Origin: Acidimicrobiia bacterium
Lineage (GTDB): Bacteria; Actinomycetota; Acidimicrobiia; IMCC26256; PALSA-555
Assembly: GCA_046484625.1 (NCBI GenBank)
Contig: JAWOIO010000192.1
Coordinates: 1,979 to 65,978, forward strand
Reading direction: 5' to 3'
Length of the DNA stretch: 64,000 nt
Below are positions 1 to 49,816 of the stretch, one piece after another. The stretch's first letter is position 1. Each line of letters starts with the position of its first letter. Below the pieces are notes generated by a model. It made no database searches and was not told the origin of the DNA. It saw only the letters and a list, made by a program, of their open reading frames with translations. The position numbers and the translations under genes are program-made.

Positions 1-33
1 TGCGGGCGCTCTGCACCACGTGAGCGCGCGCGG

Positions 34-116
34 TGCCCGGGGAGGGATTCGAACCCTCATGCCCTTGCGAGCAGCGGATTTTGAGTCCGCCGTGTCTGCC
101 ATTCCACCACCCGGGC
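34..116 (-). tRNA. tRNA-Leu (anticodon CAA), type II with long variable arm, CCA not encoded
   Basis: Reverse complement folds as a cloverleaf: acceptor GCCCGGG/CCCGGGC, anticodon stem GCGGA/TCCGC with loop CTCAAAA, T-arm GAGGG-TTCGAAT-CCCTC, about 14-nt variable arm. Confidence 0.9.
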
Positions 117-15349: not shown

Positions 15350-15396
15350 TTCTCGGCACGCTGATGGTTGCAGAGCAACACTCAGCGTGCCGAGAA
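15350..15396. terminator. Long bidirectional hairpin between convergent crotonase and trpC genes
   Basis: 15-bp perfect arms TTCTCGGCACGCTGA / TCAGCGTGCCGAGAA plus an inner 5-bp stem GTTGC/GCAAC with an AGA loop. The right arm overlaps the trpC stop. Confidence 0.6.
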
Positions 15397-16191
15397 CGGG
15401 AGGGCGGCGAGCTCGCGAGCCAGTGCCTCGGGATCATCGGAACGGACGAGGGCCTCACCGACGAGCACCGCGTCGAATCCCGCGGCGCCCATACGCCGTG
15501 CGTCGTCGACGGAGCGGATCGCGCTCTCGGCGACTGCCACCACGTCGTTCGGCAACGACCCACCGAGACGCTCGGCCCGCGACCGGTCCTCCTCGAACGT
15601 CGTGAGGTCACGAGCGTTGATCCCGATGATCGAGGCGCCGACCTCGAGGGCCCGTTCGACCTCTCGCTCGTCGTGGGCTTCCACCAACACGTCGAGCGTC
15701 AGGTCACGCGCGAGCGAGAGCAGATCTGCGAGCAGTGCGTCGTCCGGGATGGCGGCGACGATGAGCAGGATTGCATCGGCCCCGATCCCCCGCGCCTCGT
15801 ACACCTGATCGGGGTCGATCGTGAAGTCCTTGCGGAGGATCGGCGTTGCGCTCGTGGCATCGCGCGCGGCCTGGAGATCGGCGACCGACCCGCCGAAGAA
15901 CGGGCCGTCCGTCAGCACCGACAGGCACGCGGCGCCACCCCGCTCGTAGTCCCCCGCGAACCGGGCGGGATCGAGGTCGGGTGCGAGCTCACCCTTCGAG
16001 GGCGAACGACGCTTGATCTCGGCGATCACGCCGAGGGACCCCAGCCCCCTCCGCTTGCGGAGTGCCGCCTCGAACCCCCGCGTCGGGGGGCTCGCGAGCG
16101 CGGCCTTCCGGATCGCGTCCCGCGCCTGCGGCTGGTGGAGCAGCGTGACCTCGTCGCGCTTCGTGGCGAGGATCTCGTCGAGCACGCTCAT
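15382..16191 (-). CDS. trpC: Indole-3-glycerol-phosphate synthase
   Basis: Internal ATG (MSVLDEILATKRDEV) of ORF 15382..16320. IAEIKRRSPSKG, ILRKDF, VAESAI. Confidence 0.9.
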   Translation of the reverse strand: MSVLDEILATKRDEVTLLHQPQARDAIRKAALASPPTRGFEAALRKRRGLGSLGVIAEIKRRSPSKGELAPDLDPARFAGDYERGGAACLSVLTDGPFFGGSVADLQAARDATSATPILRKDFTIDPDQVYEARGIGADAILLIVAAIPDDALLADLLSLARDLTLDVLVEAHDEREVERALEVGASIIGINARDLTTFEEDRSRAERLGGSLPNDVVAVAESAIRSVDDARRMGAAGFDAVLVGEALVRSDDPEALARELAALPFSAR

Positions 16192-16240
16192 GCGGGCGCA
16201 AGTGTGCCAGACCGGCTCAGCCCTTCTACGCTCCCTTCCC

Positions 16241-17422
16241 ATGACGACAGCCTTTCCCGATGGCTTCCTCTGGGGTACGGCCACGGCCGCGCACCAGGTG
16301 GAGGGCTCCAACTGGAACAACGACTGGTGGGCGTGGGAACACGCACCGGGGACGCCGTGCGTCGAGCCGTCCGGCGACGCCTGCGACCACTACTGGCGGT
16401 ACGAGGAGGATCTCGACATCCTCGCCGGTCTCGGGTTCGGCGCCTATCGGTTCTCGCTCGAGTGGTCCCGGATCGAACCCGAGGAGGGCGAGTTCTCGCG
16501 CGCGCAGCTCGACCACTACGCCCGCGTGCTCGACGCCTGCGCCGCGCGGGGACTCGTGCCGGTGGTGACGTTCCACCATTTCACCACCCCTCGCTGGGCC
16601 GTCGTCGACGGCGGCTGGACCGACCCCACGACCGCCGAGCGCTTCGCCCGCTTCTGCGAGCACGCGACCGCTGCCCTCGGCGACCGCATCGGCATGGCCT
16701 GCACGATCAACGAGCCCAACGTGGTCTCGACCATCGGGTACCTCGTCGGCGCGTTCCCTCCCGGCCACACCCAGGATCTCGACGGCTTCGTGCGTGCCAC
16801 CGAGGTGCTCGTCGATGCACATCGCCGCTCGTACGACGCGATCAAGAGCGGACCCGGGGACTTCCCCGTGGGACTCACCTTGTCGATGAGCGACTGGGGT
16901 GCCGAAGAAGGCGCCGAGGACAAGATCGCCGAGTACCGGGCGCACCACGAGGACGTCTACCTCGAGGCCGCACGCGGTGACGACTACTTCGGCGTGCAGG
17001 CGTACTCACGCACCCGGGTCGGCAACGACGGGATCCTCGGCCCGGAGCCGGGGGTCGAGGTGCTCCCGATGGGCTACGAGTACTGGCCGCGGGCTGCCGA
17101 GGCCTCGATCCGGCATGCCGCGGAGGTGGCCCAGGTCCCGCTCTACGTCACCGAGAACGGGATCGGCACCGACGACGACGAGCAGCGGATCCGGTACCTG
17201 CAGGAGTCGCTCGCCGGTGTCGCGGCGACCATCGCCGACGGGATCGACGTCCGCGGCTACTTCCAGTGGTCCCTGCTCGACAACTTCGAGTGGGCGTTCG
17301 GCTACCAGATGCGCTTCGGGATCGTCGGCGTCGACCGGCAGACCCAGGTGCGGACCACGAAGCCGAGCGCCGCCTGGATGTCGGAGGTGGTGCGGACGAA
17401 CCGGATCGCCACCTCCGGCTGA
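16241..17422 (+). CDS. Glycoside hydrolase family 1 beta-glucosidase
   Basis: Internal ATG (MTTAFPDGFLWGTATAAHQVEG). TINEPN acid/base and YVTENG nucleophile motifs, DNFEW. 393 aa, somewhat short for GH1. Confidence 0.85.
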   Translation: MTTAFPDGFLWGTATAAHQVEGSNWNNDWWAWEHAPGTPCVEPSGDACDHYWRYEEDLDILAGLGFGAYRFSLEWSRIEPEEGEFSRAQLDHYARVLDACAARGLVPVVTFHHFTTPRWAVVDGGWTDPTTAERFARFCEHATAALGDRIGMACTINEPNVVSTIGYLVGAFPPGHTQDLDGFVRATEVLVDAHRRSYDAIKSGPGDFPVGLTLSMSDWGAEEGAEDKIAEYRAHHEDVYLEAARGDDYFGVQAYSRTRVGNDGILGPEPGVEVLPMGYEYWPRAAEASIRHAAEVAQVPLYVTENGIGTDDDEQRIRYLQESLAGVAATIADGIDVRGYFQWSLLDNFEWAFGYQMRFGIVGVDRQTQVRTTKPSAAWMSEVVRTNRIATSG

Positions 17423-36710: not shown

Positions 36711-38363
36711 GTGGAGTACAACCTCGCAGACCTGTTCGAGAAGGTCGTCGACACCGTGCCCGAACGTGAGGCGCTCGTGTGCGGCGATCGCCGGCTGACC
36801 TTCGCGGAGGTCGAAGCGCGCGCGAACCGCCTCGCCCACGCGTTCGCCGACCTCGGCGTGGGGGCCGGCGACCACGTGGCGCTCTACCTCCGCAACGGCA
36901 CCGAGTACCTCGAGGGCATGCTCGCCGCGTTCAAGCTGCGGGCCGTGCCCGTCAACGTCAACTTCCGCTACGTCGAAGACGAGCTGCGGTACCTCCTCGA
37001 CAACAGCGACGCCAAGGTGGTCCTCTTCGACCTGGAGTTCGCGCCCAAGCTCGCCCACCTGCGCACCGACCTCCCGGACCTTGCCGGGTACCTGGCGGTC
37101 GCGCCCCGCGGCAGTGCGAGCGTCGATCCCGACATCGCCGGCGCCATCGCCGCGCTCGGTGCCGTCGACTACGAGGACGCGCTCGCCGGCGCGTCACCGG
37201 CGCGCGACTTCGGGCCTCGGTCCGCCGACGACCTCTACATCCTGTACACCGGCGGGACCACGGGGATGCCCAAGGGCGTCATGTGGCGCCACGAGGACAT
37301 CTTCTTCGGCGCCTTCGGCGGCGGCGGGATCGGCGACCCGATCTCGACCCCCGAGGAGATCGCGGCCCGGGCCGAGGCCGGAACCACCCGCTGCTTCCCC
37401 GCGTGCCCGTTCATGCACGGCACGGCGCACTGGATGGCGTTCCAGTCCCTGCTCACCGGTGGCGCCGTCGTGATCGACACCGAGCACCACCTCGACCCCA
37501 CCCACGTCTGGGAGCTGGTCGCTCGGGAGCACGTCAACTTCCTCGTCATCGTCGGCGACGCGATGGGTCGCCCGCTCGTCGAGGCGATCGAGCACCTCGA
37601 CCCCGAGGTCGACCTGTCGGGCCTCACCATCTTGTTGTCGGGTGGGGCGATCCTGTCGCCGCCGGTCAAGCGCCAGCTCGCCGCTCGGCTGCCGTCCACG
37701 ATGGTGATCGACGGCATCGGCTCCTCGGAGGCCGGCGGGCAGGGCCAGATGCTCGCCACCAAGGACGGGGAGATCCCGTCGCAGCCGCGCTTCGCGATGG
37801 GGCCCCAGAACACCGTCCTGGACGACGACCTTCGCCCTGCCGCGCCCGGCGAGGTGGGGAAGCTGGCCCGGTCGGGTCACATCCCGCTCGGCTACTACAA
37901 GGACGAGGAGAAGTCGGCCACGACGTTCCCGGTCGTCGACGGGGTGCGCTGGTCGATCCCGGGCGACCACGCCCGCATCGAGTCCGACGGCACGATCACG
38001 GTGCTCGGCCGGGGCTCCGTGTCGATCAACACCGGCGGGGAGAAGGTCTACCCCGAAGAGGTCGAGGGAGCCCTGAAGTCGCACGACGACGTCTTCGACG
38101 CCGTGGTGGTCGGGGTACCCGACCAGCGATGGGGCGAGCGCGTCGTCGCGGTGATCCAACCTCGCGCCGGCGCGACCCCCACGCTCACCGACCTCGACGG
38201 GCACGTGCGCGAGCACATTGCGGGCTACAAGACGCCGCGCGACGTGGTGCTCGTGGACGCGGTCGTCCGGTCCCCGTCGGGGAAGCCCGACTACCGCTGG
38301 GCGAAGACGGTCGCGATGCAGCACGTCCTCCCGCGCGACCCCGACGCCGTTCCCGCGCCCTGA
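36711..38363 (+). CDS. AMP-dependent acyl-CoA synthetase/ligase (FadD-like)
   Basis: Internal GTG ([11 protein letters not shown]...). [15 protein letters not shown]-binding motif, [28 protein letters not shown]. Confidence 0.85.
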
Positions 38364-38377
38364 GGGCGCGCGCCGCG

Positions 38378-40402
<2,025 letters not shown>

Positions 40403-41126: not shown

Positions 41127-41182
41127 CAGGTCTCCATTGTGGCCGATGGGGTCCGCGAGAGGCCAGTCGGTAGGATCGCGGC

Positions 41183-41737
41183 GTGCGCCGCTCTCTGCTC
41201 GTGTTCATCGCCGCGTCCAGCGTGCTCGCTGCCGCGTGCAGCGGTGCGACGGGCACCGGTGGTGGTTCCGACACCGGCGAGGGGCGCTCCGACGCCCCTG
41301 AGGCTGCCCCCGCACCGGCCGCGAACGAGGCCACGACGCTCGACTTCACCGCACCCGCCGTCGACGGGGGCACCGTCCGTGGCGCGGACTACGCCGGCGA
41401 CGCCCTCGCGATCTGGTTCTGGGCGCCCTGGTGAAGCACGTGCAACCGGGAGGCCCCCGGGGTCGCGCAGGTGGCGCGGCAGTTCCAGGACCGAGTGGCG
41501 ATCATCGGCTTCGCGGGCCGTGACGACCTCGAACCGATGCGTGCGTTCGTCGACCGCTACGACTTCGGGTTCGTCCCACACGCCGTCGACGCCGACGGGA
41601 GCCTCTGGTCGGCGTTCGGTGTCCGGGGCCAACCCGCCTGGGTCTTCGTCGGGGCCGACGGCTCCCGAGAGGTCGTCTACGGGGCGGTCACCGAGGAGGA
41701 CCTCATCCGCCGGCTCGAGGCGCTCGAGGCCGCCTGA
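41183..41737 (+). CDS. TlpA/ResA-like thioredoxin-fold lipoprotein interrupted by in-frame TGA at the first Cys of CxxC (candidate UxxC selenoprotein, or nonsense pseudogene)
   Basis: Track ORFs 41183..41434 and 41471..41737 share a frame. Lipobox LAAC. FWAPW-TGA-STC-NREAP, then GVRGQPAWVFV (cis-Pro region). Fold signature is intact on both sides of the TGA. Confidence 0.6.
41446..41478 (+). promoter_or_regulatory. Two adjacent GC hairpins 11 and 29 nt downstream of the in-frame UGA (candidate bacterial SECIS)
   Basis: CCGGG-AGGCC-CCCGG (41446..41460) and CGCGC-AGGTG-GCGCG (41464..41478). G-rich apical loops. Confidence 0.3.
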
Positions 41738-41738
41738 G

Positions 41739-42551
41739 TCACTCGACCACGGTCCGCTCCAGCGAGGGGTCCGCGGGCGGGATCCGGGGATCGATGGCCG
41801 TCAGGGTCTCCACGAGCAGGGTCTCCACGGCGACGTCGCGGACCCACTTCCGGTCGGCCGGCACCACGTACCATGGCGCCTCCCCCGTCGAGGTCTCGGT
41901 GATGACCTCCTCGTAGAGGTCCTGGTACTCGTCCCACTGCTTGCGGACGTCGAGGTCCGCCGCCTTGAACTTCCAGTTCTTCACCGGGTCGTCGACGCGC
42001 TCCTGGAGGCGCACGCGCTGCTCGTCCTTGGAGATGTGGAGGAAGACCTTCACGACGGTCGTCCCCTCCTCGGTGAGCATGCGCTCGAACTCACGCAGGT
42101 GGCGGTAGCGCTGCCGGCAGCGGTCTCGGTCGACCACGCCGATCATGCGGGCGGCAAGCACATCCTCGTAGTGCGACCGGTTGAACACCCCGAGCATCCC
42201 GCGCGGCGGGCACTCGGCGTGGACACGCCAGAGGTAGTCCTGGGCCCGCTCGGTCTCGGTCGGCGCCTTGAAGCTGGCGACGCGACACCCCTGGGGGTTC
42301 AACCCGGACAGCACCCGGCGGATCGTGCCGTCCTTGCCCGCGGTGTCCATCCCCTGGAGGACGAGGAGCACGGAGCGCTTCCCCTCGGCCCAGAGCAGTT
42401 CGTGCAGCTCCTCCAGCTCCTCACCGAGACCGTCGCGCCGCGCGGCAGCCTCCGCCTTGTCCTCCAGCCCGAGCTTGTCGCGCGCGTTGCGGGAGGCCAG
42501 CCCCGCGGCGACCCCGGGCTTGACCCGCATCGCGTCGACCATCTCGTCCAT
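41739..42551 (-). CDS. ppk2: Polyphosphate kinase 2 (PPK2) family
   Basis: Internal ATG (MDEMVDAMRV...). LVLQGMDTAGKDG Walker A, FNRSHYEDVL, ISK.EQ..R...R..DP.K.WKF, W.Y.VPAD.KW. Confidence 0.9.
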   Translation of the reverse strand: MDEMVDAMRVKPGVAAGLASRNARDKLGLEDKAEAAARRDGLGEELEELHELLWAEGKRSVLLVLQGMDTAGKDGTIRRVLSGLNPQGCRVASFKAPTETERAQDYLWRVHAECPPRGMLGVFNRSHYEDVLAARMIGVVDRDRCRQRYRHLREFERMLTEEGTTVVKVFLHISKDEQRVRLQERVDDPVKNWKFKAADLDVRKQWDEYQDLYEEVITETSTGEAPWYVVPADRKWVRDVAVETLLVETLTAIDPRIPPADPSLERTVVE

Positions 42552-42614
42552 CGGGGGCGCTCCCTCTCCGTCGACTCGGCAACCGTCTCGGCGAGCGACG
42601 CTAGCGTCACGGCC

Positions 42615-42854
42615 GTGGCGCCCGACGTGAACCTGCTCGACGGCGGTGCGGAGACCACCCGCACGGTGATCGGGTTCGGCACGCACTTCTGCCTTGGTGC
42701 GTCGCTTGCGCGGCTCGAGATCCGGGTGATGTTCGAGGAGCTGCTCCGCCGCGTCCCCGACATGGAGGTTGCGCCAGGTGCCGAGCCGACGAAGGTGCCG
42801 TCGGTGTTCGCGTGTGCCTACGACGCGATCCCGGTGCAGTTCACGCCTTGCTGA
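42615..42854 (+). pseudogene. Cytochrome P450 remnant (I-helix fragment fused to heme-binding loop and C-terminus)
   Basis: LLDGGAETTRTVI (I-helix-like) is followed directly by GFGTHFCLGASLARLEIRVMFEELLRRVP...VQFTP. About 80 aa in total. Compare the intact P450 at 44117..45394. Confidence 0.6.
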
Positions 42855-43244: not shown

Positions 43245-44120
43245 TCACGAGAGCCGGTTGGCGGCGGTGACGACCGCGTCGAGGAGCTCCGGGGTCACGA
43301 GTGCGGCACCCTCGGGTGAGAAGTGTCCACCGTCTCTCGGGCGGAGCTCGACGTCGCCGATGACCGTCGGGCACGACCCGCCGGGACAGACGATCGACGA
43401 GAGTCGGACCACGGTCACCATGTCGGCGTGGCGCGCGGCGACCCGCGCCAGGAACCGCTCGTACTGGCGCACGTCCTGGGCGTACTGAAACCCTTCGGGG
43501 GTCAGCGCTTGGATCCAGTCGGCCGGCGGCGCATGGGCGACGACGACGACGCTCCGGACACCGGCCGACTCCAACGCATCGAGCGCACGCAACCACAGGT
43601 CGAAGGTGGCGGCCTCCCATTCCGGTGTCCCGAACGCGAGGTTCTCGTCGCCGAGGAGCAAGCCCGCGATCTCCCACGACGACAGGATCACCGCAACTTG
43701 CGCGTCGCCGAGCTCGTCATCGAGCACCCGCCGTTCGAGTGACTCGCAGTCCGTCGGTCCGATCACCGTCCCGTCAGGGGCTGTCGGTCGCCCCTCGAGG
43801 ACCCGGCAACCGATCTTGGGTGCGTTGACCCAGGAGAGGCCACGTGCCGACGCGAGCTCCGCCATCGGGTCCGCGAGGTTCGACGCGACGGAGTCGCCGG
43901 TGAACCAGTAGCGCTCGAACGGCGGGGGGAGCGGTGGGGGGAGCGTTGTCGTGGGAACGGTCACCGGCTGGAACGGGCGACGCGAGGCGCTCCGAGCGCT
44001 GTCACCGCCACCATCGACGGCCCACAGCCCCGCTCCCACCGCGAGGACGAGCAGCAGCAGGATGCCGGCGATCGCGACCGTGCGTCGGCGTCCCGCACGC
44101 CTGCGCGCGCGGCGGATCAC
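43245..44120 (-). CDS. Membrane-anchored SGNH/GDSL-type hydrolase domain protein
   Basis: N-terminal Arg-rich segment plus a TM anchor. WFTGDSVA (GDS block), C-terminal RPRDGGHF (DxxH block). Resembles the C-terminal domain of the OafA-like protein at 24474..26441. ATGA overlap with the P450. Confidence 0.7.
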   Translation of the reverse strand: MIRRARRRAGRRRTVAIAGILLLLVLAVGAGLWAVDGGGDSARSASRRPFQPVTVPTTTLPPPLPPPFERYWFTGDSVASNLADPMAELASARGLSWVNAPKIGCRVLEGRPTAPDGTVIGPTDCESLERRVLDDELGDAQVAVILSSWEIAGLLLGDENLAFGTPEWEAATFDLWLRALDALESAGVRSVVVVAHAPPADWIQALTPEGFQYAQDVRQYERFLARVAARHADMVTVVRLSSIVCPGGSCPTVIGDVELRPRDGGHFSPEGAALVTPELLDAVVTAANRLS

Positions 44121-45394
44121 CCTGTGCGTCGTGGAACGACCGGCGTGAACGTCGCGGGCATGCGCTTGATGCCGTTGATGAAGTTGGACTGGAGGTAGGC
44201 CGGCTCGCCGCTGATCTGGAGGTCGGGCAGCCGGGTGAGCAGCTCCTCGAACATGACCTTGATCTCGCGCCGGGCGAGGTGGGCGCCGAGGCAGAAGTGC
44301 GGGCCACCGCCCCCGAAGCCGAGGTGCTCGTTGGGGTCACGACGCAGGTCGAAGGCGTAGGGGTCGTCGAACACGCGCGGGTCGCGGTTTGCCGTCCCGT
44401 ACCAGATCGCGACCTTCTCGCCTTCCTTGATCGTCTGGCCGTTGATCTCGGTCTCGGCGGTCGCGCACGTCCGCCGGAAGTGGATCACCGGGGTGGACCA
44501 GCGGATGATCTCCTCGACCGCGGTGGGCGCGAGGCCCTCGAAGTCCTCGAGCCACGAGGCGCGCTGGTCGGGATGGTTCGTGAGCGCCAGCATCCCGTGG
44601 CTGATCGCGTTGCGGGTGGTCTCGTTCCCCGCGACCACGAGCAGGACGAAGAACGAGCCGAACTCCTCCGGGGTGAGGCTGTGCCCTTCGACCTCGGCCT
44701 GCGCGATCTTCGTGGTGATGTCGTCGCGCGGGTTCTTCAGCCGATCGGCCCGCAGCTCCTGGGCGTAGCGCCACAGCTCCTGGGACGCGGCGAACGCCGC
44801 TGCGATGTCGCCGCCGTAGTCGGGGTCGGCGGCGCCGAGCACGATGTTCGTGTTGTCGTAGATGTAGCGGTAGTCGGACTCGGGGATCCCCATCATGTCG
44901 CAGATGATCTGCAGTGGCAGGGCCGCCGCGACCTCGTCGACGAAGTCGCACTCGCCCTTCTCGGCGATCGCGTCGACGATGGCGCGGGCACGCTCGTGGA
45001 CGCCCGCCTCGAGCGACGCGACCTGGCTCGGGGTGAAGCCACGGTTGACGATCAGGCGGAACCGCGTGTGGCGGGGCGGGTCCATGTTGATCATCGACCC
45101 GAGGTACTCGTAGACCTCCGGGGGGAAGTCGGGGATGTTCGTGCCCTTGCCCGAGATGAACAGGTCGGGGTGGCGGCTCACGTGCTGCACGTCGGCGTGG
45201 CGCGTGACCATCCAGTACCCGGGGCCCGGCACGATCCCCGCGATCTCGGGCTCGGTGTGCCAGGAGACCGGGCGCTCCTCCTGGAGCTTGGCGAGCATCC
45301 CCGGGATGTCGTCCCGGGACCAGAGCGCCATGTTGCCGAAGTCGATGTCGTCGACCGCGAGGTCCGTGGTGGGTGTCGTGGCCATCGGCGACAC
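44117..45394 (-). CDS. Cytochrome P450 (CYP124/125/142-like architecture)
   Basis: AGNETT I-helix, EEIIRW (ExxR), FGGGGPHFCLGAHLAR heme-Cys loop. GTG start. 425 aa. Confidence 0.9.
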   Translation of the reverse strand: MSPMATTPTTDLAVDDIDFGNMALWSRDDIPGMLAKLQEERPVSWHTEPEIAGIVPGPGYWMVTRHADVQHVSRHPDLFISGKGTNIPDFPPEVYEYLGSMINMDPPRHTRFRLIVNRGFTPSQVASLEAGVHERARAIVDAIAEKGECDFVDEVAAALPLQIICDMMGIPESDYRYIYDNTNIVLGAADPDYGGDIAAAFAASQELWRYAQELRADRLKNPRDDITTKIAQAEVEGHSLTPEEFGSFFVLLVVAGNETTRNAISHGMLALTNHPDQRASWLEDFEGLAPTAVEEIIRWSTPVIHFRRTCATAETEINGQTIKEGEKVAIWYGTANRDPRVFDDPYAFDLRRDPNEHLGFGGGGPHFCLGAHLARREIKVMFEELLTRLPDLQISGEPAYLQSNFINGIKRMPATFTPVVPRRTG

Positions 45395-45435
45395 TCTAGA
45401 GATCGTCAGCGCCCCGCGGGGCGGTTCCTGCGAAC

Positions 45436-45513
45436 TTCTCGTGACCGATTCGGCCCCCGTGTGGGTTCTGGTGACCAGATCGGCCGCGTCGAGGGCCTAT
45501 CACGTCACCAGAA
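45436..45513. promoter_or_regulatory. Three copies of a 20-bp motif (two direct at 30-bp spacing, one inverted) in the P450/lhr divergent intergenic region
   Basis: TTCTCGTGACCGATTCGGCC (45436), TTCTGGTGACCAGATCGGCC (45466), and GGCCTATCACGTCACCAGAA (45494), whose reverse complement matches copy 2 at 17 of 20 positions. Copy 2 contains the palindrome TCTGGT-G-ACCAGA. Confidence 0.45.
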
Positions 45514-45559
45514 CGGGTTGGCCGTCGAAGGTGTCGTACCCAGGGGCCAGAATGGGCCG

Positions 45560-48500
45560 GTGACCTCGCTCGGGACCCGGCCCCCCGCCGCCGGCCAGCT
45601 CCGACTCGGCGACCCCCGCGCGGACCAGGATCTCGAGCCCGACGTCCCGGACGCCGGCTTCCACCCCGCCGTCGCCGAGTGGTTCCGGCGCCGCTTCCCC
45701 GACGGTCCCACCGAGCCCCAGGAGCGGGGCTGGCCCCACATCGCGGCCGGCACCGACACGCTCATCGCGGCGCCCACCGGGTCCGGGAAGACACTGGCCG
45801 GGTTCCTCGTGTGCATCGATCGCCTGTACCGGGCGCATACCCGAGGCGAGGAGGTCGCCGACGTCGCCCGGGTGGTCTACGTCTCACCGCTGAAGGCGTT
45901 GGCCGTCGACATCGCCGAGAACCTCACCGGTCCCTTGCGCGAGATCGCCGAGATCGCCGCCGAGCTCGGAGTCGACGCGCCCGACGTGCGAGTCGCGGTG
46001 CGCACCGGGGACACCCCGGCGTCGCAACGGGCCGGGATGCTGCGCCACCCCCCGAGCTTCGTCGTCACCACTCCGGAGTCGCTGTACCTGCTCGTCACGA
46101 GCGCGAAGAGCCGTGAGATGCTGCGCACCGTCGACACGGTCATCGTCGACGAGATCCACGCCGTCGCCCGCGACAAGCGCGGCGCGCACCTCGCGCTCAC
46201 CCTCGAACGGCTCGAGGCCCTCTGCGACGTGCGTCCGGTCCGCGTGGGCCTGTCCGCGACCCAGCGCCCGATCGAGACCGTGGCCCGCCTGCTCGTCGGC
46301 GCGCGCCCGCTCCCGGCGATCGTCGACGCCGGGCACCTGCGCGACCTCGACGTGGCGATCGAGCTCCCCGACGGCGAGCTCGAGGCCGTGATCTCGGCCG
46401 AGCAGATGGCCGATGTCCTCGACCGCATCGCCGCCCTCGTCGGCGAGCACCACACCACGCTCGTCTTCGTCAACACCCGCCGGATGGCCGAGCGCATCGC
46501 GCACCAGCTCGGCGAGCGGATCGGCGACGACGTCGTTGCTGCGCACCACGGCAGCCTCTCGAAGGAGCGCCGCCACCGGATCGAGGGGCGCCTCCGTGCC
46601 GGCGACCTCAAGGCCCTCGTCGCGACCGCGTCCCTCGAGCTGGGCATCGACATCGGCCCGGTGGAGCTCGTCTGCCAGATCGGCTCGCCGCGCAGCATCG
46701 CCACGTTCCTGCAGCGGGTGGGCCGGTCGAACCACAGCCGGGCCGGCACCCCGAAGGGCCGCCTCTACCCCCTCACGCGCGACGAGCTCGTCGAGTGCAC
46801 TGCCCTGCTCGCGGCCGTCCACGCGGGACGTCTCGACGCGATCGTGCCGTCGCGCGAACCGCTCGACATCGCGGTCCAGCACGTCGTCGCCGAGGCGGCC
46901 GCCCGCGAGTGGCGCACCGACGACCTCTTCGCACTCGTCCGCCGGGCCGCGCCCTACACCGAGCTCACGCGAGAGCGCTTCGACGAGATCATCGACCTGG
47001 CTTCGAACGGCATCCAGACCGGCCGGGGCCGCCGCGGTGCGTACGTCTTCCACGACGCGGTGAACGGCGAGGTCCGGGGGCGCAAGAGCGCCCGCATCGC
47101 GGCCACCACCTCCGGGGGCGCGATCCCCGAGACCGGCGACTACCGGGTCGTCATGGAGCCCGACGACACGTTCATCGGCACCGTGAACGAGGACTGGGCC
47201 GTCGAGTCGATGGCCGGCGACATCTTCCTCCTCGGCACCCACTCCTGGCAGATCCGACGCGTCGAGGCCGGCGTGGTCCGGGTGCGCGACGCCGGCACGG
47301 CCGCGCCCACGATCCCGTTCTGGATGGGCGAGGCACCCGCCCGCACCGCCGAGCTCTCGGCCGAGGTCTCCGAGCTGCGTCGCCGGGTCGACGAGATGCT
47401 CGACGCGAACGACCCGGACGGCGCCCGCGCCTGGCTCCGCGAGTCGGCAGGCGTCAGCGCCGACGCCGCCGCGATGATCGTCGACTACCTCGCGGTCTCC
47501 CGTGCCGCGCTCGGCGCCATGCCCACCCAGGACCGCATCGTCCTCGAGCGGTTCTTCGACGAGACCGGTGGGATGCAGCTCGTGATCCACTCCCCCTACG
47601 GAGGACGGATCAACCGTGCCCTGGGGCTCGCGCTGCGCAAGAAGTTCTGTCGCACCTTCAACTTCGAGCTCCAGGCCGCGGCGAGCGACGACGCGATCGT
47701 GCTCTCGCTCGGCCCCCACCACAGCTTCCCGCTGGAGGAAGTCCCTCGCTACGTCACCAGCGCCGGGGTCGAGGAGACGCTGCGCCAGGCGATCCTCGAC
47801 TCGCCGATGTTCCTCTCACGCTGGCGTTGGAACCTCAACCGCTCGCTCGTGGTGCTCCGGTTCCGCAACGGTCGACGGAACCCGCCGCCGATCCAGCGGA
47901 TGGAGTCGGACGATCTCATGGCCGCGGTGTTCCCGCAAGCGGCGGCCTGCCAGGAGAACATCACCGGCCCGATCGAGATCCCCGATCACCTCCTGGTGCG
48001 CCAGACCATCGCCGACACCCTCCACGAGGCGCTCGACGTCGACGGCGTCCGCGATCTGCTCGTGGGCCTCGAGTCCGGGGCCGTCGCGACGCACTGCGTC
48101 GACACGACCGAGCCATCGGTGCTCGCCCACGAGATCCTCACCGCTCGGCCGTACGCGTTCCTCGACGACGAGGAGCTCCAGAACCGCCGGACCAACGCGG
48201 TCACGCTGCGTCGCGGGCTCTCGGTCGATCTCGCCTCGATCGGGGTGCTCGACCCCGAGGCCGTCGACCGGGTGCACGCCGAGATCACGCCCGAGCCCGC
48301 GACCGCCGACGACCTCCACGACCTCGTGGCGTCCCTCGTCTGTACGCCGGCGCGACCCGAGTGGGCCGCGCTGTGGTCCGAGCTCGTCGAGCGCGGCCGG
48401 GGCCAGGTGCTCGACGTCGACCGCGCCCGCCGATGGTGCACCACCGAGCAGGTCGACGCGGCCCGAGGGGCGCTCGCCGGAGACGACGACGCGCTCATCC

Positions 48501-49816
48501 GTCTCACGCGCGGCCACCTCGAGATCGCGGGCATCACCACCGTCGAGGAGCTGAGTGACCAGCTCGCGATCGCGCCGACGCGGCTCGCGATCGCGCTCGC
48601 GGTGCTCGAGCAGGAGGGAACCGCCCTCCAGGGCCGGTACCGACCCGGCGCCGAAGGACCCGAGTGGGTGGCCCGCCGGCTGCTCGCCCGGATGCACTCG
48701 TACTCGCGCGGCGCGCGGCGCGAGCGGATCGAGCCCGCAACCGCCCAGGACCTCATGCGCTTCCTGCTCCGGTGGCAGCACATCGCGCCCGGAACCCAGC
48801 TCGACGGCACGGCCGGGCTCGTCTCCGTGATCGAGCAGCTCCAGGGCCACGAGGCGCCGGCCGTCGCGTGGGAACCGGAGCTGCTCACCGCCCGGATGCG
48901 CCGGTACGACCCGTCGTGGCTCGACCGGCTCTGCCACGAGGGCCAGGTGGCATGGCTGCGCCTCACCCCCCGCGCCCGGGACGACGCCGACGGCCCGTCG
49001 GGTGCCCCGTCGAAGGCGACCCCCATCACCGTCGTCTTCCGCGACGACCTGCCGTGGTTGCTCGAGGCCGCCCGCGGCGACGCACCGCCCGCCGAGCCCA
49101 CCGTCGGCGCCACCAGCGAGGTCATCGAGACGTTGCGCGCCAGGGGCGCGTGCTTCGCGGGTGATCTCGCCGACGCGACGCGCCGACTCCCCGAGGACAT
49201 CGAGCGCGCGCTCTGGGACGGCGTCGCACGCGGGCTCGTCACCAGCGACGGGTTCGCCTCGATCCGGGCGCGCATGGCCGGCCGACGACGCGCCGACGAC
49301 GCTCGACGGCTGTCGAGGCTCGTCCGGGGCGGCCGCGGCCCGGGTGTGGCGCCGGGGCGTTGGTCGCTCGTCGACGCCCAGAGCCACGACCGGCCGAGCC
49401 GCGACCGGCCGAGCCACGACCGAGAGGAGCTCGCCGAGGCCGTCGCCGAGCAGCTCCTGAACCGCTGGGGCGTCGTGTTCCGCGACCTCGCCGTGCGTGA
49501 CTCGCTGCGGGTCCCGTGGCGCGAGGTGCAGTGGGCGCTGCGGCGGCTCGAGGACCGGGGCCTGGTGCGCGGGGGCCGGTTCGCGACCGGGTTCACCGGC
49601 GAGCAGTACGCGCTCCCGGCGGCCGTCGAGCAGCTCACGCACGTCCGCAAGCAGCCCCGTACCGGGGAGCGGGTCACCGTGAACGCGGCCGACCCGCTCA
49701 ACCTCGTGGGGCCCATCGTGCCCGGACCGACCGTGCCGTCGGTCCGCACGCGGACCGTCACCTACGTCGACGGCGCCGCCACCGACACCCTGGAGGCCCT
49801 GCCCGGCAAAGGGTGA
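45560..49816 (+). CDS. lhr: Lhr-type large ATP-dependent DNA helicase
   Basis: GTG start within ORF 43934..49816. APTGSGKT, VDEIH, SATQ, DEAD/DEAH-box and helicase C motifs, long Lhr-type C-terminal region. 1418 aa. Confidence 0.9.
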   Translation: MTSLGTRPPAAGQLRLGDPRADQDLEPDVPDAGFHPAVAEWFRRRFPDGPTEPQERGWPHIAAGTDTLIAAPTGSGKTLAGFLVCIDRLYRAHTRGEEVADVARVVYVSPLKALAVDIAENLTGPLREIAEIAAELGVDAPDVRVAVRTGDTPASQRAGMLRHPPSFVVTTPESLYLLVTSAKSREMLRTVDTVIVDEIHAVARDKRGAHLALTLERLEALCDVRPVRVGLSATQRPIETVARLLVGARPLPAIVDAGHLRDLDVAIELPDGELEAVISAEQMADVLDRIAALVGEHHTTLVFVNTRRMAERIAHQLGERIGDDVVAAHHGSLSKERRHRIEGRLRAGDLKALVATASLELGIDIGPVELVCQIGSPRSIATFLQRVGRSNHSRAGTPKGRLYPLTRDELVECTALLAAVHAGRLDAIVPSREPLDIAVQHVVAEAAAREWRTDDLFALVRRAAPYTELTRERFDEIIDLASNGIQTGRGRRGAYVFHDAVNGEVRGRKSARIAATTSGGAIPETGDYRVVMEPDDTFIGTVNEDWAVESMAGDIFLLGTHSWQIRRVEAGVVRVRDAGTAAPTIPFWMGEAPARTAELSAEVSELRRRVDEMLDANDPDGARAWLRESAGVSADAAAMIVDYLAVSRAALGAMPTQDRIVLERFFDETGGMQLVIHSPYGGRINRALGLALRKKFCRTFNFELQAAASDDAIVLSLGPHHSFPLEEVPRYVTSAGVEETLRQAILDSPMFLSRWRWNLNRSLVVLRFRNGRRNPPPIQRMESDDLMAAVFPQAAACQENITGPIEIPDHLLVRQTIADTLHEALDVDGVRDLLVGLESGAVATHCVDTTEPSVLAHEILTARPYAFLDDEELQNRRTNAVTLRRGLSVDLASIGVLDPEAVDRVHAEITPEPATADDLHDLVASLVCTPARPEWAALWSELVERGRGQVLDVDRARRWCTTEQVDAARGALAGDDDALIRLTRGHLEIAGITTVEELSDQLAIAPTRLAIALAVLEQEGTALQGRYRPGAEGPEWVARRLLARMHSYSRGARRERIEPATAQDLMRFLLRWQHIAPGTQLDGTAGLVSVIEQLQGHEAPAVAWEPELLTARMRRYDPSWLDRLCHEGQVAWLRLTPRARDDADGPSGAPSKATPITVVFRDDLPWLLEAARGDAPPAEPTVGATSEVIETLRARGACFAGDLADATRRLPEDIERALWDGVARGLVTSDGFASIRARMAGRRRADDARRLSRLVRGGRGPGVAPGRWSLVDAQSHDRPSRDRPSHDREELAEAVAEQLLNRWGVVFRDLAVRDSLRVPWREVQWALRRLEDRGLVRGGRFATGFTGEQYALPAAVEQLTHVRKQPRTGERVTVNAADPLNLVGPIVPGPTVPSVRTRTVTYVDGAATDTLEALPGKG
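49381..49421 (+). repeat. In-frame 15-bp tandem repeat (about 2.7 copies) encoding SHDRP-SRDRP-SHDR in the lhr C-terminal region
   Basis: GAGCCACGACCGGCC / GAGCCGCGACCGGCC / GAGCCACGACC, read directly. Confidence 0.9.

What the first reader, a model, noticed from the sequence alone, without database searches (positions are those of the whole stretch)
41183..41737. Candidate UxxC selenoprotein: TlpA-like lipoprotein with TGA at the catalytic Cys position
Two track ORFs are in the same frame, separated by one TGA (41432..41434). Read through, they give a 184-aa lipoprotein (signal plus lipobox LAAC) with an uninterrupted TlpA/ResA-type thioredoxin fold: ...ALAIWFWAPW-[TGA]-STC-NREAPGVAQVARQF...GFAGRDD...FVPHAVDADGSLWSAFGVRGQPAWVFV... 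The TGA falls exactly where the first Cys of WCxxC is expected, which is the classic site of Sec in thiol-oxidoreductase selenoproteins. Two GC hairpins with G-rich loops (AGGCC and AGGUG) start 11 and 29 nt downstream, within the spacing expected for bacterial SECIS elements. The competing explanation is a single C-to-A nonsense mutation of TGC. GC hairpins and open frames are also common in this genome, so the evidence is suggestive, not conclusive.
Basis: partly seen in the sequence, partly recalled or inferred. Interest (0 to 1): 0.8.

Follow-up and report, generated by a model that had tools for sequence, protein, structure and literature searches.

The report
Selenocysteine-containing DsbE/TlpA-like lipoprotein gene
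The in-frame TGA is very probably a real selenocysteine codon in an exported thiol-disulfide oxidoreductase, kept with its RNA insertion signal in dozens of related bacteria, so it is a genuine but unsurprising new member of a known class of selenoproteins that gene callers routinely break in two.

Summary
Window 41183-41737 (+) is one frame with a single internal TGA (41432-41434) in W-[TGA]-S-T-C, and the read-through product is a TlpA/ResA/DsbE-type thioredoxin-fold lipoprotein.

The pseudogene alternative is refuted. The same TGA sits at the same column in 46 further sequences. These come from 30 species-representative MAGs, mostly Nitriliruptoria and Acidimicrobiia, and 16 metagenome contigs. 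Both halves stay in frame and are under purifying selection.

Every TGA-form has two adjacent hairpins right after the TGA (window 41446-41460 and 41462-41480). Cys-forms of the family (TGC/TGT) lack them. The hairpins are 93.5% paired across 45 sequences. Six of 12 pairs show compensatory double changes, some of which change an amino acid. Each hairpin fits the published bacterial SECIS consensus.

TGA is also the normal stop of these genes, so recoding is local.

The closest solved relatives are M. tuberculosis DsbF and DsbE. UxxC TlpA-like selenoproteins are already catalogued, but no NCBIfam model covers this clade and callers split the gene.

I could not test whether selA, selB, selC and selD are present in the source genome.

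Verdict: real selenoprotein gene, a new member of a known kind, of moderate interest.

The parts
41169..41175 (+). Possible Shine-Dalgarno (GGTAGGA), 7 nt before the GTG start
   Evidence: Read from the sequence. Inferred only and not tested.
41183..41737 (+). Complete selenoprotein gene: 184 codons, GTG start, Sec codon 84, TGA stop. A monocistronic DsbE/DsbF/TlpA-like lipoprotein.
   Evidence: - Single frame.
- Pfam AhpC-TSA, Redoxin and Thioredoxin hits.
- PDB 3IOS at E 2e-30 and 1LU4 at E 1.5e-25.
- Flanked by a divergent 219-aa ORF and a convergent PPK2 gene.
41183..41239 (+). Signal peptide with lipobox (MRRSLLVFIAASSVLAAA-C19)
   Evidence: Sequence. A lipobox-like motif lies 53-102 residues before the Sec in 40 of 47 TGA-forms. 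No signal-peptide predictor was run.
41432..41434 (+). In-frame TGA, read as selenocysteine (U84)
   Evidence: The same codon sits at the same column in L001-L003, in 30 genome loci and in 13 metagenome loci. It aligns to the first Cys of WCxxC in Cys-homologues and in DsbF/DsbE.
41432..41443 (+). U-S-T-C redox motif (UxxC); C87 is the resolving Cys
   Evidence: W83, C84 (=U) and C87 are invariant columns, and the two x residues vary freely.
41446..41460 (+). SECIS hairpin 1: CCGGG / loop AGGCC / CCCGG. The stem starts 11 nt after the UGA and the loop 16 nt after it.
   Evidence: - 96.4% paired in 45 sequences, with 2 pairs showing compensatory double changes (L006 CCAGG/CCUGG, L047 UCGGG/CCCGA).
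- Arg codon is CGG in 39 of 39 TGA-forms and Pro codon is CCC in 44 of 46. Synonymous variation is confined to the loop.
- dG is -8.1 kcal/mol in the window.
41462..41480 (+). SECIS hairpin 2: GUCGCGC / loop AGGUG / GCGCGGC. The loop starts 34 nt after the UGA.
   Evidence: - Predicted independently by RNAalifold.
- 91.4% paired, with 4 of 7 pairs showing compensatory double changes. Pair 48-56 alone has 17 sequences changed on both sides.
- This region was not part of the search pattern.
- dG is -11.3 kcal/mol in the window.
41633..41635 (+). Codon of the conserved cis-Pro (P151, GQPAW loop) of the thioredoxin fold
   Evidence: Invariant column in alignments A2 and A5; position. That it is cis is inferred from the fold family.
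41735..41737 (+). Genuine stop codon, also TGA
   Evidence: TGA terminates 36 of 43 complete TGA-form genes, so TGA is not reassigned genome-wide.

Best explanation
**What it is.** Window 41183-41737 encodes one 184-residue exported lipoprotein of the TlpA/ResA/DsbE thioredoxin-fold family. Its closest solved relatives are M. tuberculosis DsbF and DsbE. The N-terminal, nucleophilic residue of the CxxC redox motif is selenocysteine (U84-S-T-C87).

**How the TGA is read.** The ribosome reaches UGA 41432-41434. The mRNA just downstream folds into two adjacent GC hairpins (41446-41460 and 41462-41480) with G-rich 5-nt loops. These act as the bacterial SECIS. SelB-GTP-Sec-tRNA(Sec) binds one of the loops and delivers Sec to the A site in competition with release factor 2, and translation continues to the real TGA stop at 41735.

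**What the protein does.** It is exported, lipid-anchored at Cys19, and performs thiol-disulfide exchange outside the cytoplasmic membrane through a U84-C87 selenenylsulfide/selenol-thiol couple.

**Shown here:**
- the conserved TGA;
- coding constraint on both sides of it;
- two conserved, covarying hairpins specific to the TGA-forms;
- fold membership.

**Inferred:**
- that Sec is the residue inserted;
- which hairpin SelB binds;
- export and lipidation;
- the direction of the redox reaction (oxidase or reductase) and its substrates.
For: 1. **Conserved TGA.** Three truncated 101-aa gene calls among the homologues (P0027, P0028, P0031) all start just after an upstream TGG-TGA-xxx-xxx-TGC in the same frame. 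A DNA-pattern scan of GTDB species genomes found 30 true family members with the same TGA. Most are Nitriliruptorales, Egibacteraceae, Euzebyales and Acidimicrobiia.
2. **Sec/Cys alternation.** A protein-pattern scan of metagenomes gave 13 TGA against 66 TGC/TGT at this column.
3. **Hairpins specific to TGA-forms.** Pairs kept are 5/5 and 6-7/7 in most TGA-forms, and lower only where hairpin 1 shifts register. Cys-forms keep 0-4/5 and 0-5/7. The 39-nt region folds at a median of -20 to -21.6 kcal/mol in TGA-forms against -13.6 in Cys-forms, at equal GC content (Mann-Whitney p 4e-6 and 6e-13).
4. **Covariation.**
   - 93.5% of cells are paired, against 39-53% when the partners are slid.
   - 6 of 12 pairs carry changes on both sides (27 cells).
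   - 0 of 500 shuffles reach the observed value.
   - Some compensations change the protein (GCG to GAG, Ala to Glu) to match a synonymous GCG to GCU in the other arm.
5. **Codon choice.** Cys-forms with the same N-R-E-A-P peptide use CGC and have no hairpins.
6. **SECIS consensus.** Both hairpins meet the published bSECIS consensus in PMC13188914:
   - loop of 3-9 nt;
   - stem of 4-16 bp;
   - G in the first two loop positions, followed by G or U;
   - 16-37 nt from the UGA (here 16 and 34);
   - dG at or below -7.5 kcal/mol.
7. **Purifying selection on both halves.** Window against L019: upstream pS 0.23 and pN 0.03; downstream outside the SECIS pS 0.17 and pN 0.03. Four other close pairs look similar.
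8. **TGA is the ordinary stop** in 36 of 43 of these genes.
9. **An old clade.** 37 of 43 Sec-forms fall in one NJ clade, and every Sec-form's nearest neighbour is another Sec-form.
10. **Precedent.** The class Acidimicrobiia is known to contain Sec decoders (bioRxiv 10.64898/2026.04.03.716425). UxxC thioredoxin-fold selenoproteins are a known kind.
Against: - **No machinery seen.** No selA, selB, selD or tRNA-Sec was found in the 64-kb window or in about 700 kb of related loci. The source genome could not be searched.
- **No Rfam match** to any SECIS family. Bacterial SECIS elements are poorly represented in Rfam.
- **Not significant alone.** The hairpins are no more stable than shuffles of this GC-rich sequence.
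- **Partial ascertainment bias.** Part of hairpin 1 was fixed by my search pattern in the genome set. The metagenome set and hairpin 2 are free of that bias.
- **No experimental evidence.** There is no proteomic or 75Se evidence.
Confidence: 0.9

Rival explanations
1. SECIS-directed recoding inserts cysteine or another residue, not selenocysteine. A SelB-like factor with a UCA-anticodon tRNA carrying Cys would give an ordinary CxxC protein from a TGA-containing gene.
For: None of the sequence evidence (conserved TGA, hairpins) identifies the amino acid inserted. From my own knowledge, tRNA(Sec)-like tRNAs charged with Cys have been proposed in a few bacteria. The machinery could not be inspected here.
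Against: UGA at the nucleophilic Cys of a thioredoxin-fold CxxC, alternating with Cys codons in homologues, is the standard signature of Sec (PMC1794560, PMC13188914). Cys could be encoded directly at no cost, as 66 relatives do. Long-term maintenance of a costly recoding signal therefore implies a benefit specific to Sec.
Confidence: 0.05
2. It is a pseudogene: a single TGC-to-TGA nonsense mutation inactivated a TlpA-like gene, and the hairpins are chance GC-rich structures.
For: Folding of 41432-41500 is no better than shuffles (z +0.85). GC-rich hairpins are common at 71% GC. Gene callers split the gene.
Against: - The identical TGA is kept in 46 other sequences as little as about 40-55% identical in protein.
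- No other frame disruption is seen, and pN is much lower than pS on both sides.
- The hairpins covary and occur only in TGA-forms.
Confidence: 0.02
3. It is a split gene. An 83-residue lipopeptide ends at the TGA, and a separate C-terminal protein starts at an internal start codon (GTG 41471 here).
For: Gene callers produce exactly such pairs (83 aa plus 80 aa in L120; 101-aa calls P0027, P0028 and P0031).
Against: - The codon before the second Cys is a start codon in only 6 of 47, and in the window it is ACG.
- GTG 41471 lies in the loop of hairpin 2 and its position is variable.
- The C-terminal piece would lack a signal peptide and half of the thioredoxin fold, and the CxxC would be cut in two.
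- The PDB alignment is continuous across the site.
Confidence: 0.02
4. TGA is reassigned genome-wide to a sense codon (for example Trp or Gly) in these organisms.
For: It would explain a conserved in-frame TGA without special machinery.
Against: The same genes end in TGA in 36 of 43 cases. The window is 71% GC, with TGA used as a stop by neighbouring genes. The hairpins would be unexplained.
Confidence: 0.01

Closest known systems
[quoted passage not shown]
   Same: TlpA/redoxin-type thioredoxin fold. Sec at the first position of UxxC. Cys-containing homologues are widespread. The SECIS lies inside the coding region immediately after the UGA.
   Different: Those families were described from marine metagenomes and Deltaproteobacteria. 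I could not retrieve their sequences to test identity with this clade. This clade is a DsbE/DsbF-like lipoprotein of high-GC Actinomycetota with the signature WFWAPW-U-xx-C-NREAPGV. It has no NCBIfam model.
Mycobacterium tuberculosis DsbF (Rv1677, PDB 3IOS) and DsbE/MPT53 (Rv2878c, PDB 1LU4)
   Same: Best solved relatives (E 2e-30 and 1.5e-25). They share domain length, the WFWAPWCxxC...EAP active-site context and the QPA cis-Pro loop. Both are secreted or lipoprotein forms in an actinobacterium.
   Different: They carry Cys, not Sec, at the nucleophilic position, and have no SECIS. From my own knowledge they behave as oxidases in vitro. The redox direction of the Sec form is unknown.
E. coli fdhF/fdnG SECIS and the bSECISearch consensus
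   Same: A hairpin begins 11 nt after the UGA, which from my own knowledge is the spacing of the minimal fdhF element. The apical loop is small with G followed by G or U. All four consensus constraints are met.
   Different: There are two tandem hairpins separated by one nucleotide, not one long bulged stem-loop. There is no sequence similarity to fdhF and no Rfam match. Which hairpin is the SelB ligand is unknown.
NCBIfam NF041054 'ResA-like WAxxUGC motif-containing protein'
   Same: A ResA/TlpA-like selenoprotein with Sec in the redox motif after a W-A-x-x context.
   Different: It scores only 21 bits against a cut-off of 300. The motif is UGC rather than UxxC and the length is 354 aa. It is a different family.

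Membership tests
Bacterial selenoprotein gene (Sec-UGA plus bSECIS) | In-frame UGA aligned with a catalytic Cys in homologues | tested here: met
   The TGA lies opposite the first Cys of WCxxC in P0001-P0008, in DsbF/DsbE and in 66 metagenome Cys-forms.
Bacterial selenoprotein gene (Sec-UGA plus bSECIS) | UGA conserved among orthologues, with coding constraint on both sides | tested here: met
   46 further TGA-forms. pN is much lower than pS upstream and downstream in close pairs.
Bacterial selenoprotein gene (Sec-UGA plus bSECIS) | Stem-loop meeting the bSECIS consensus: 3-9 nt loop, 4-16 bp stem, G in the first two loop positions, 16-37 nt from the UGA, dG at or below -7.5 kcal/mol (PMC13188914) | tested here: met
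   In the window:
- Hairpin 1: 5 bp stem, loop AGGCC, 16 nt from the UGA, -8.1 kcal/mol.
- Hairpin 2: 7 bp stem, loop AGGUG, 34 nt from the UGA, -11.3 kcal/mol.

Across 33 sequences, 31 meet the energy limit for hairpin 1 and 27 for hairpin 2.
Bacterial selenoprotein gene (Sec-UGA plus bSECIS) | RNA structure supported by covariation and absent from Cys-forms | tested here: met
   (6 of 12 pairs compensatory; 0 of 500 shuffles). Searches show that Cys-forms lack it.
Bacterial selenoprotein gene (Sec-UGA plus bSECIS) | selA, selB, selD and tRNA-Sec present in the same genome | not testable with these tools
Sec machinery is reported in another order of Acidimicrobiia.
Bacterial selenoprotein gene (Sec-UGA plus bSECIS) | Selenium shown in the protein | not testable with these tools
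   Needs 75Se labelling or mass spectrometry.
TlpA/ResA/DsbE-like thioredoxin-fold oxidoreductases (Pfam AhpC-TSA/Redoxin; cd02966) | Domain match above the curated threshold, continuous across the active site | tested here: met
   AhpC-TSA 54 bits (cut-off 26), Redoxin 40.4 (26.6), Thioredoxin_8 34.5 (27). The best NCBIfam hit is the ResA subfamily, but at 56 bits it is below its cut-off of 170.
TlpA/ResA/DsbE-like thioredoxin-fold oxidoreductases (Pfam AhpC-TSA/Redoxin; cd02966) | W-C-x-x-C redox motif and conserved cis-Pro loop | tested here: met
   W83, U84 (C in homologues), C87 and P151 are invariant columns. The first Cys is replaced by Sec.
TlpA/ResA/DsbE-like thioredoxin-fold oxidoreductases (Pfam AhpC-TSA/Redoxin; cd02966) | Extracytoplasmic location (signal peptide or membrane anchor) | tested here: inconclusive
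   An N-terminal hydrophobic segment plus an AAAC lipobox is read from the sequence, and a lipobox-like motif occurs in 40 of 47 relatives. No dedicated predictor and no experiment.
Mycobacterial DsbE/DsbF (MPT53) subfamily | Full-domain sequence similarity to the solved members | tested here: met
   3IOS at E 2e-30 (residues 52-182) and 1LU4 at E 1.5e-25.
Mycobacterial DsbE/DsbF (MPT53) subfamily | Disulfide oxidase activity | not testable with these tools
   A biochemical property.
Curated NCBIfam selenoprotein models (e.g. NF041054 WAxxUGC ResA-like) | Score above the model's cut-off | tested here: not met
   21.1 bits against 300. No selenoprotein-specific model is matched.
Rfam SECIS families | Covariance-model match | tested here: not met
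   No match at gathering score in the window, and none at E up to 10 in 41380-41560.

The most novel reading that the evidence does not exclude
This may be a selenoprotein clade that has not yet been catalogued. It would be a Sec form of the actinobacterial DsbE/DsbF secreted lipoprotein, maintained for a long time across Nitriliruptoria and many Acidimicrobiia, which are largely aerobic soil, saline and alkaline lineages.

Three consequences would follow:
- these classes are unrecognised Sec decoders;
- their cell-envelope thiol-disulfide chemistry depends on selenium;
- their SelB recognises an unusual tandem-hairpin SECIS, whose second hairpin forces amino-acid changes in helix alpha-1 of the enzyme.
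Probability: 0.4. Interest if true: 0.5.

Novelty: new member of a known kind. Interest (0 to 1): 0.4.

Why it matters
- **Annotation.** Every gene caller seen here breaks this gene into two fragments or calls only the C-terminal 101 residues. No NCBIfam model rescues it. A widespread envelope redox enzyme is therefore missing or marked broken in dozens of Actinomycetota MAGs. A profile plus the covariance model of the two hairpins would fix that.
- **Biology.** It places a selenoenzyme on the outer face of the membrane of high-GC, largely aerobic actinobacteria. It also flags Nitriliruptoria and Acidimicrobiia as probable users of selenocysteine.
- **RNA-protein dual constraint.** Compensatory RNA changes are paid for with Ala-to-Glu replacements in the protein. 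This offers a natural two-hairpin SECIS for asking what actinobacterial SelB recognises.
- **Limits.** The kind of protein (a UxxC thioredoxin-fold selenoprotein) is well known, so this does not change current understanding.

Tried and rejected
- **Single-sequence folding of 41432-41500.** No better than shuffles, so it is not usable as evidence.
- **Rfam.** No SECIS match at gathering score or at E up to 10.
- **Sec machinery search.**
  - ARAGORN on the window and 33 loci, then on all 120 sequences, found no tRNA-Sec.
  - This is uninformative because the sample is tiny.
  - I decided against spending the remaining large protein searches on E. coli Sel probes. The word-based candidate step recovers mainly close relatives (36 hits from 1588 candidates). 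It would not have linked a hit to the right genome.
- **Odd tRNA call.** The 100-nt 'tRNA-Gly' in L022 next to the gene looked like a possible mis-called tRNA-Sec. Its sequence is ordinary coding DNA.
- **Conserved neighbours or operon partners.** None. The best neighbour cluster occurs in 6 of 33 loci and is an Lhr-type helicase region. The window neighbours are an unknown 219-aa ORF, PPK2, a DUF255 thioredoxin-domain protein and an SGNH protein.
- **Second selenoprotein in the window.**
  - A scan for in-frame TGAs with coding signal on both sides gave two sites (35485 +, 18578 -) that look like ordinary stop-then-next-gene junctions. That scan's filters also failed to flag the finding's own TGA, so it was not sensitive.
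  - Covariance model R1 of the two hairpins found only the finding itself (67 bits). The next hit, at 16822-16870 (-), scores 15 bits, and the minus-strand ORF that spans it (16226-16948) reads through without a stop.
- **All-pairs pN/pS.** Synonymous sites are saturated for most pairs, so only the closest pairs are informative.
- **RNAalifold's alternative pairing.** It paired the upstream TGGGC with the hairpin 1 region. No pair there shows a change on both sides, so I rejected it in favour of hairpin 1.
Full report
**1. The observation**

Window 41183-41737 (+) is a single reading frame. It starts at GTG 41183, ends at TGA 41735-41737, and is interrupted once by TGA 41432-41434. The two mechanical ORFs (41183-41434, 83 aa; 41471-41737, 88 aa) are in the same frame.

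With the TGA read as Cys, the 184-residue product passes Pfam gathering thresholds for AhpC-TSA, Redoxin, Thioredoxin_8 and Thioredoxin. Its best NCBIfam similarity is to ResA, DsbE and TlpA models, all below their family cut-offs.

The context is IWFWAPW-[TGA]-S-T-C-NREAPGV.

- CCGGG-AGGCC-CCCGG at 41446-41460;
- GUCGCGC-AGGUG-GCGCGGC at 41462-41480.

On this sequence alone they mean nothing. The 69 nt after the TGA fold no better than dinucleotide shuffles (z +0.85), there is no Rfam match, and the window is 71% GC.

**2. The TGA is conserved, so this is not a private mutation**

The homology search returned full-length WCxxC homologues at 40-51% identity. It also returned three 101-residue proteins beginning MCNREAPGVAQ. 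Their contigs (L001-L003) each carry TGG-TGA-xxx-xxx-TGC immediately upstream, with the N-terminal lipoprotein half open in the same frame.

- **Genome scan.** An exact-pattern scan of one genome per GTDB species (TGGTGANNNNNNTGYAAYNNNGARGCNCCNGG) gave 31 loci, of which 30 are true family members.
  - They come from MAGs of Nitriliruptorales, Egibacteraceae, Euzebyales, Acidimicrobiia and Ilumatobacteraceae.
  - Single cases are labelled Planctomycetota and Myxococcota, and two are labelled Acidobacteriota.
  - L019 (an Acidimicrobiia MAG) is the closest relative of the window, so the window is most likely from Acidimicrobiia.
- **Metagenome scan.** A protein-pattern scan, which does not fix the nucleotides, returned 80 loci. 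At this column 13 have TGA, 50 TGC and 16 TGT.
- **Tree.** In a neighbour-joining tree, 37 of 43 Sec-forms fall in one clade of 38. Every Sec-form's nearest neighbour is another Sec-form, although identities inside the clade fall to about 45-55%.
- **Stop codon usage.** 36 of 43 complete TGA-form genes also terminate in TGA, so the codon is not reassigned.
- **Internal starts.** Only 6 of 47 have a start codon just before the second Cys. This argues against two separate products.
- **Selection.** In the closest pairs both halves are under purifying selection. For the window against L019, the 35 codons before the TGA give pS 0.23 and pN 0.03. The codons after the hairpin region give pS 0.17 and pN 0.03. 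Four other close pairs look similar. More distant pairs are saturated at synonymous sites.

**3. The hairpins are real RNA structure and belong to the TGA-forms**

In alignments of 33 and then 45 distinct TGA-forms there are no gaps from the TGA to the end of hairpin 2.

- **Pairing and covariation.**
  - The two-hairpin structure is 93.5% paired, against 39-53% when the 3' partners are slid by 1-3 columns.
  - 6 of 12 pairs have changes on both sides (27 cells).
  - No shuffle out of 500 reaches the observed covariation (the 33-sequence version is).
  - RNAalifold predicts hairpin 2 on its own.
- **Where variation falls.** Synonymous variation is confined to the loops (Glu GAG/GAA; Ala GCU/GCC/GCA/GCG). 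Stem codons are frozen: Arg is CGG in 39 of 39 and Pro is CCC in 44 of 46.
- **Protein-changing compensation.** GCG to GCU in the 5' arm is matched by GCG to GAG (Ala to Glu) in the 3' arm in 14 sequences. Other lineages show CGAGC/GCUCG, CGCAC/GUGCG and CGUGC/GCACG.
- **Hairpin 1 compensations.** There are two independent cases: CCAGG/CCUGG in L006 and UCGGG/CCCGA in L047.
- **Cys-forms lack both hairpins.**
  - Those with the very same N-R-E-A-P peptide use CGC.
  - Across 61 distinct Cys-forms the region folds at a median of -13.6 kcal/mol, against -20.3 and -21.6 for Sec-forms, at equal GC content (p 4e-6 for the unbiased metagenome set).
- **Fit to the consensus.** Each hairpin satisfies the published bacterial SECIS consensus. 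That consensus requires a 3-9 nt loop, a 4-16 bp stem, G in the first two loop positions usually followed by G or U, 16-37 nt between UGA and loop, and dG at or below -7.5 kcal/mol (PMC13188914). The values here are 16 nt and -8.1 kcal/mol for hairpin 1, and 34 nt and -11.3 kcal/mol for hairpin 2.
- **Caveat.** My genome pattern fixed part of hairpin 1 but left the Arg codon and the Pro third position free. Hairpin 2 and the metagenome set were not constrained.

**4. What the protein is**

The closest solved structures by sequence are M. tuberculosis DsbF (3IOS, E 2e-30, residues 52-182) and DsbE/MPT53 (1LU4, E 1.5e-25). Pneumococcal thioredoxin-family lipoproteins, CycY and ResA follow.

- W83, the U/C column, C87, E90, P92, D136 and the cis-Pro P151 are invariant across Sec- and Cys-forms.
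- A lipobox-like motif precedes the domain in 40 of 47 TGA-forms.
- The gene is monocistronic in the window, between a divergent 219-aa ORF of unknown family and a convergent PPK2 gene.
- A DUF255 thioredoxin-domain gene lies 0.8 kb upstream.
- No neighbour is conserved across the family, so the redox partner is unknown.

**5. Mechanism**

- **Shown:** a conserved UGA at the nucleophilic position of a thioredoxin-fold redox motif, coding constraint on both sides of it, and a covarying RNA element directly downstream that occurs only with the UGA.
- **Inferred from established knowledge of bacterial Sec insertion:** SelB-GTP-Sec-tRNA(Sec) binds the apical loop of one hairpin as the ribosome approaches the UGA and inserts Sec. 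Without selenium, the product would be the 83-residue truncated lipopeptide.
- **Open:** which hairpin is the SelB ligand.
  - Hairpin 1 has the 11-nt spacing that, from my own knowledge, the minimal E. coli fdhF element needs. It is also the only one retained in the most distant member (L006).
  - Hairpin 2 has the stronger covariation and a loop (A-G-G/U-U-N) resembling the GGU of the fdhF loop.
  - The two may stack into one unit, since they are one nucleotide apart.
- **Protein function:** the mature lipoprotein would cycle between selenolate/thiol and a U84-C87 selenenylsulfide, exchanging with substrate disulfides or thiols at the outer face of the membrane. The direction of the reaction and the substrates are unknown.

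**6. What could not be settled**

No selA, selB, selD or tRNA-Sec lies in the window or in about 700 kb of fetched loci. That is expected by chance, and whole genomes were out of reach.

At class level, a 2026 preprint reports complete Sec machinery in all 84 complete Actinomarina genomes, which belong to Acidimicrobiia. Actinobacteria have long been known as a selenoprotein-rich phylum (PMC1794560). I found no paper on selenocysteine in Nitriliruptoria or Ilumatobacter. No experimental evidence exists.

**7. Comparison with what is known, and novelty**

UxxC selenoproteins of the thioredoxin fold are well catalogued. [quoted passage not shown] The kind is therefore known.

I could not obtain their representative sequences, so this clade may or may not already be included. 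What I can say:
- No curated NCBIfam model reaches its cut-off. The nearest selenoprotein model, NF041054 (WAxxUGC), scores 21 bits against 300.
- None of the 36 database hits is a full-length read-through of a TGA-form.
- Gene callers split the gene in every source examined.

I file it as a new member of a known kind.

**8. Verdict**

The gene is a selenoprotein gene with about 0.9 confidence. The pseudogene, split-gene and codon-reassignment rivals are contradicted by the comparative data. The only live alternative is recoding that inserts something other than Sec. Interest is moderate. The finding is solid, useful for annotation and for SECIS biology in Actinomycetota, but not surprising to a selenoprotein specialist.

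Noticed in passing
L043:2376-2765 (metagenome contig Ga0163144_10053005): This is the only Cys-form (TGT) nested inside the Sec clade in the NJ tree. It still keeps 5 of 7 pairs of hairpin 2. It looks like a recent Sec-to-Cys reversion with a decaying SECIS.
   Followed up: partly
L006:2155-2232 (-) and downstream (Planctomycetota MAG CAZYLP010000216.1): A distant TGA-form (FFATW-U-GPC-NQEAPG) with a 250-residue Lys/Ala-rich C-terminal extension. It keeps only hairpin 1, with a compensatory CCAGG/CCUGG change. Together with L011 (Myxococcota) and L015/L020 (labelled Acidobacteriota), it suggests horizontal transfer or mis-binning.
   Followed up: partly
window 38378-40402 (+): A 674-residue DUF255/Thioredox_DsbH thioredoxin-domain protein (Pfam E 1.6e-76) lies 0.8 kb upstream of the finding, making it a second thiol-redox gene nearby. 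The mechanical ORF 36779-40402 (1207 aa) greatly over-extends it, as is typical for 71% GC DNA.
   Followed up: partly
window 41739-42686 (-): A polyphosphate kinase 2 (PPK2) gene converges on the selenoprotein gene. One base (41738) lies between the end of the selenoprotein gene's stop codon (41737) and the PPK2 ORF (41739), so there is no room for a terminator between them.
   Followed up: no
L120:882-1436 (Logan SRR34723212_287984); proteins P0027, P0028, P0031: Public gene calls split this gene into an 83-aa and an 80-aa fragment, or keep only a 101-aa C-terminal piece starting at a GTG just before the second Cys. This is a systematic mis-annotation of the family.
   Followed up: yes
window 43934-49816 (+); also L017, L021, L024: An Lhr-type DEAD/DEAH helicase gene lies 0.3-2.6 kb downstream of the selenoprotein gene in the window and in a few Nitriliruptorales loci. 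This is weak synteny with no obvious functional link. Family assignment is by eye from the translation and was not tested.
   Followed up: no
L022:2568-2667 (-): ARAGORN reports a 100-nt 'tRNA-Gly (gcc)' 0.9 kb from the gene. The sequence looks like ordinary coding DNA, so this is probably a false positive and not a tRNA-Sec.
   Followed up: partly
window 16822-16870 (-): This is the second-best match to the covariance model of the two hairpins (15 bits, rough E 0.016). The minus-strand ORF spanning it (16226-16948) reads through without a stop, and a 538-aa ORF lies on the + strand (15364-16980). I regard it as a chance match.
   Followed up: yes
window 32-116 (-): tRNA-Leu (CAA), the only tRNA and the only Rfam match in the window.
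   Followed up: no
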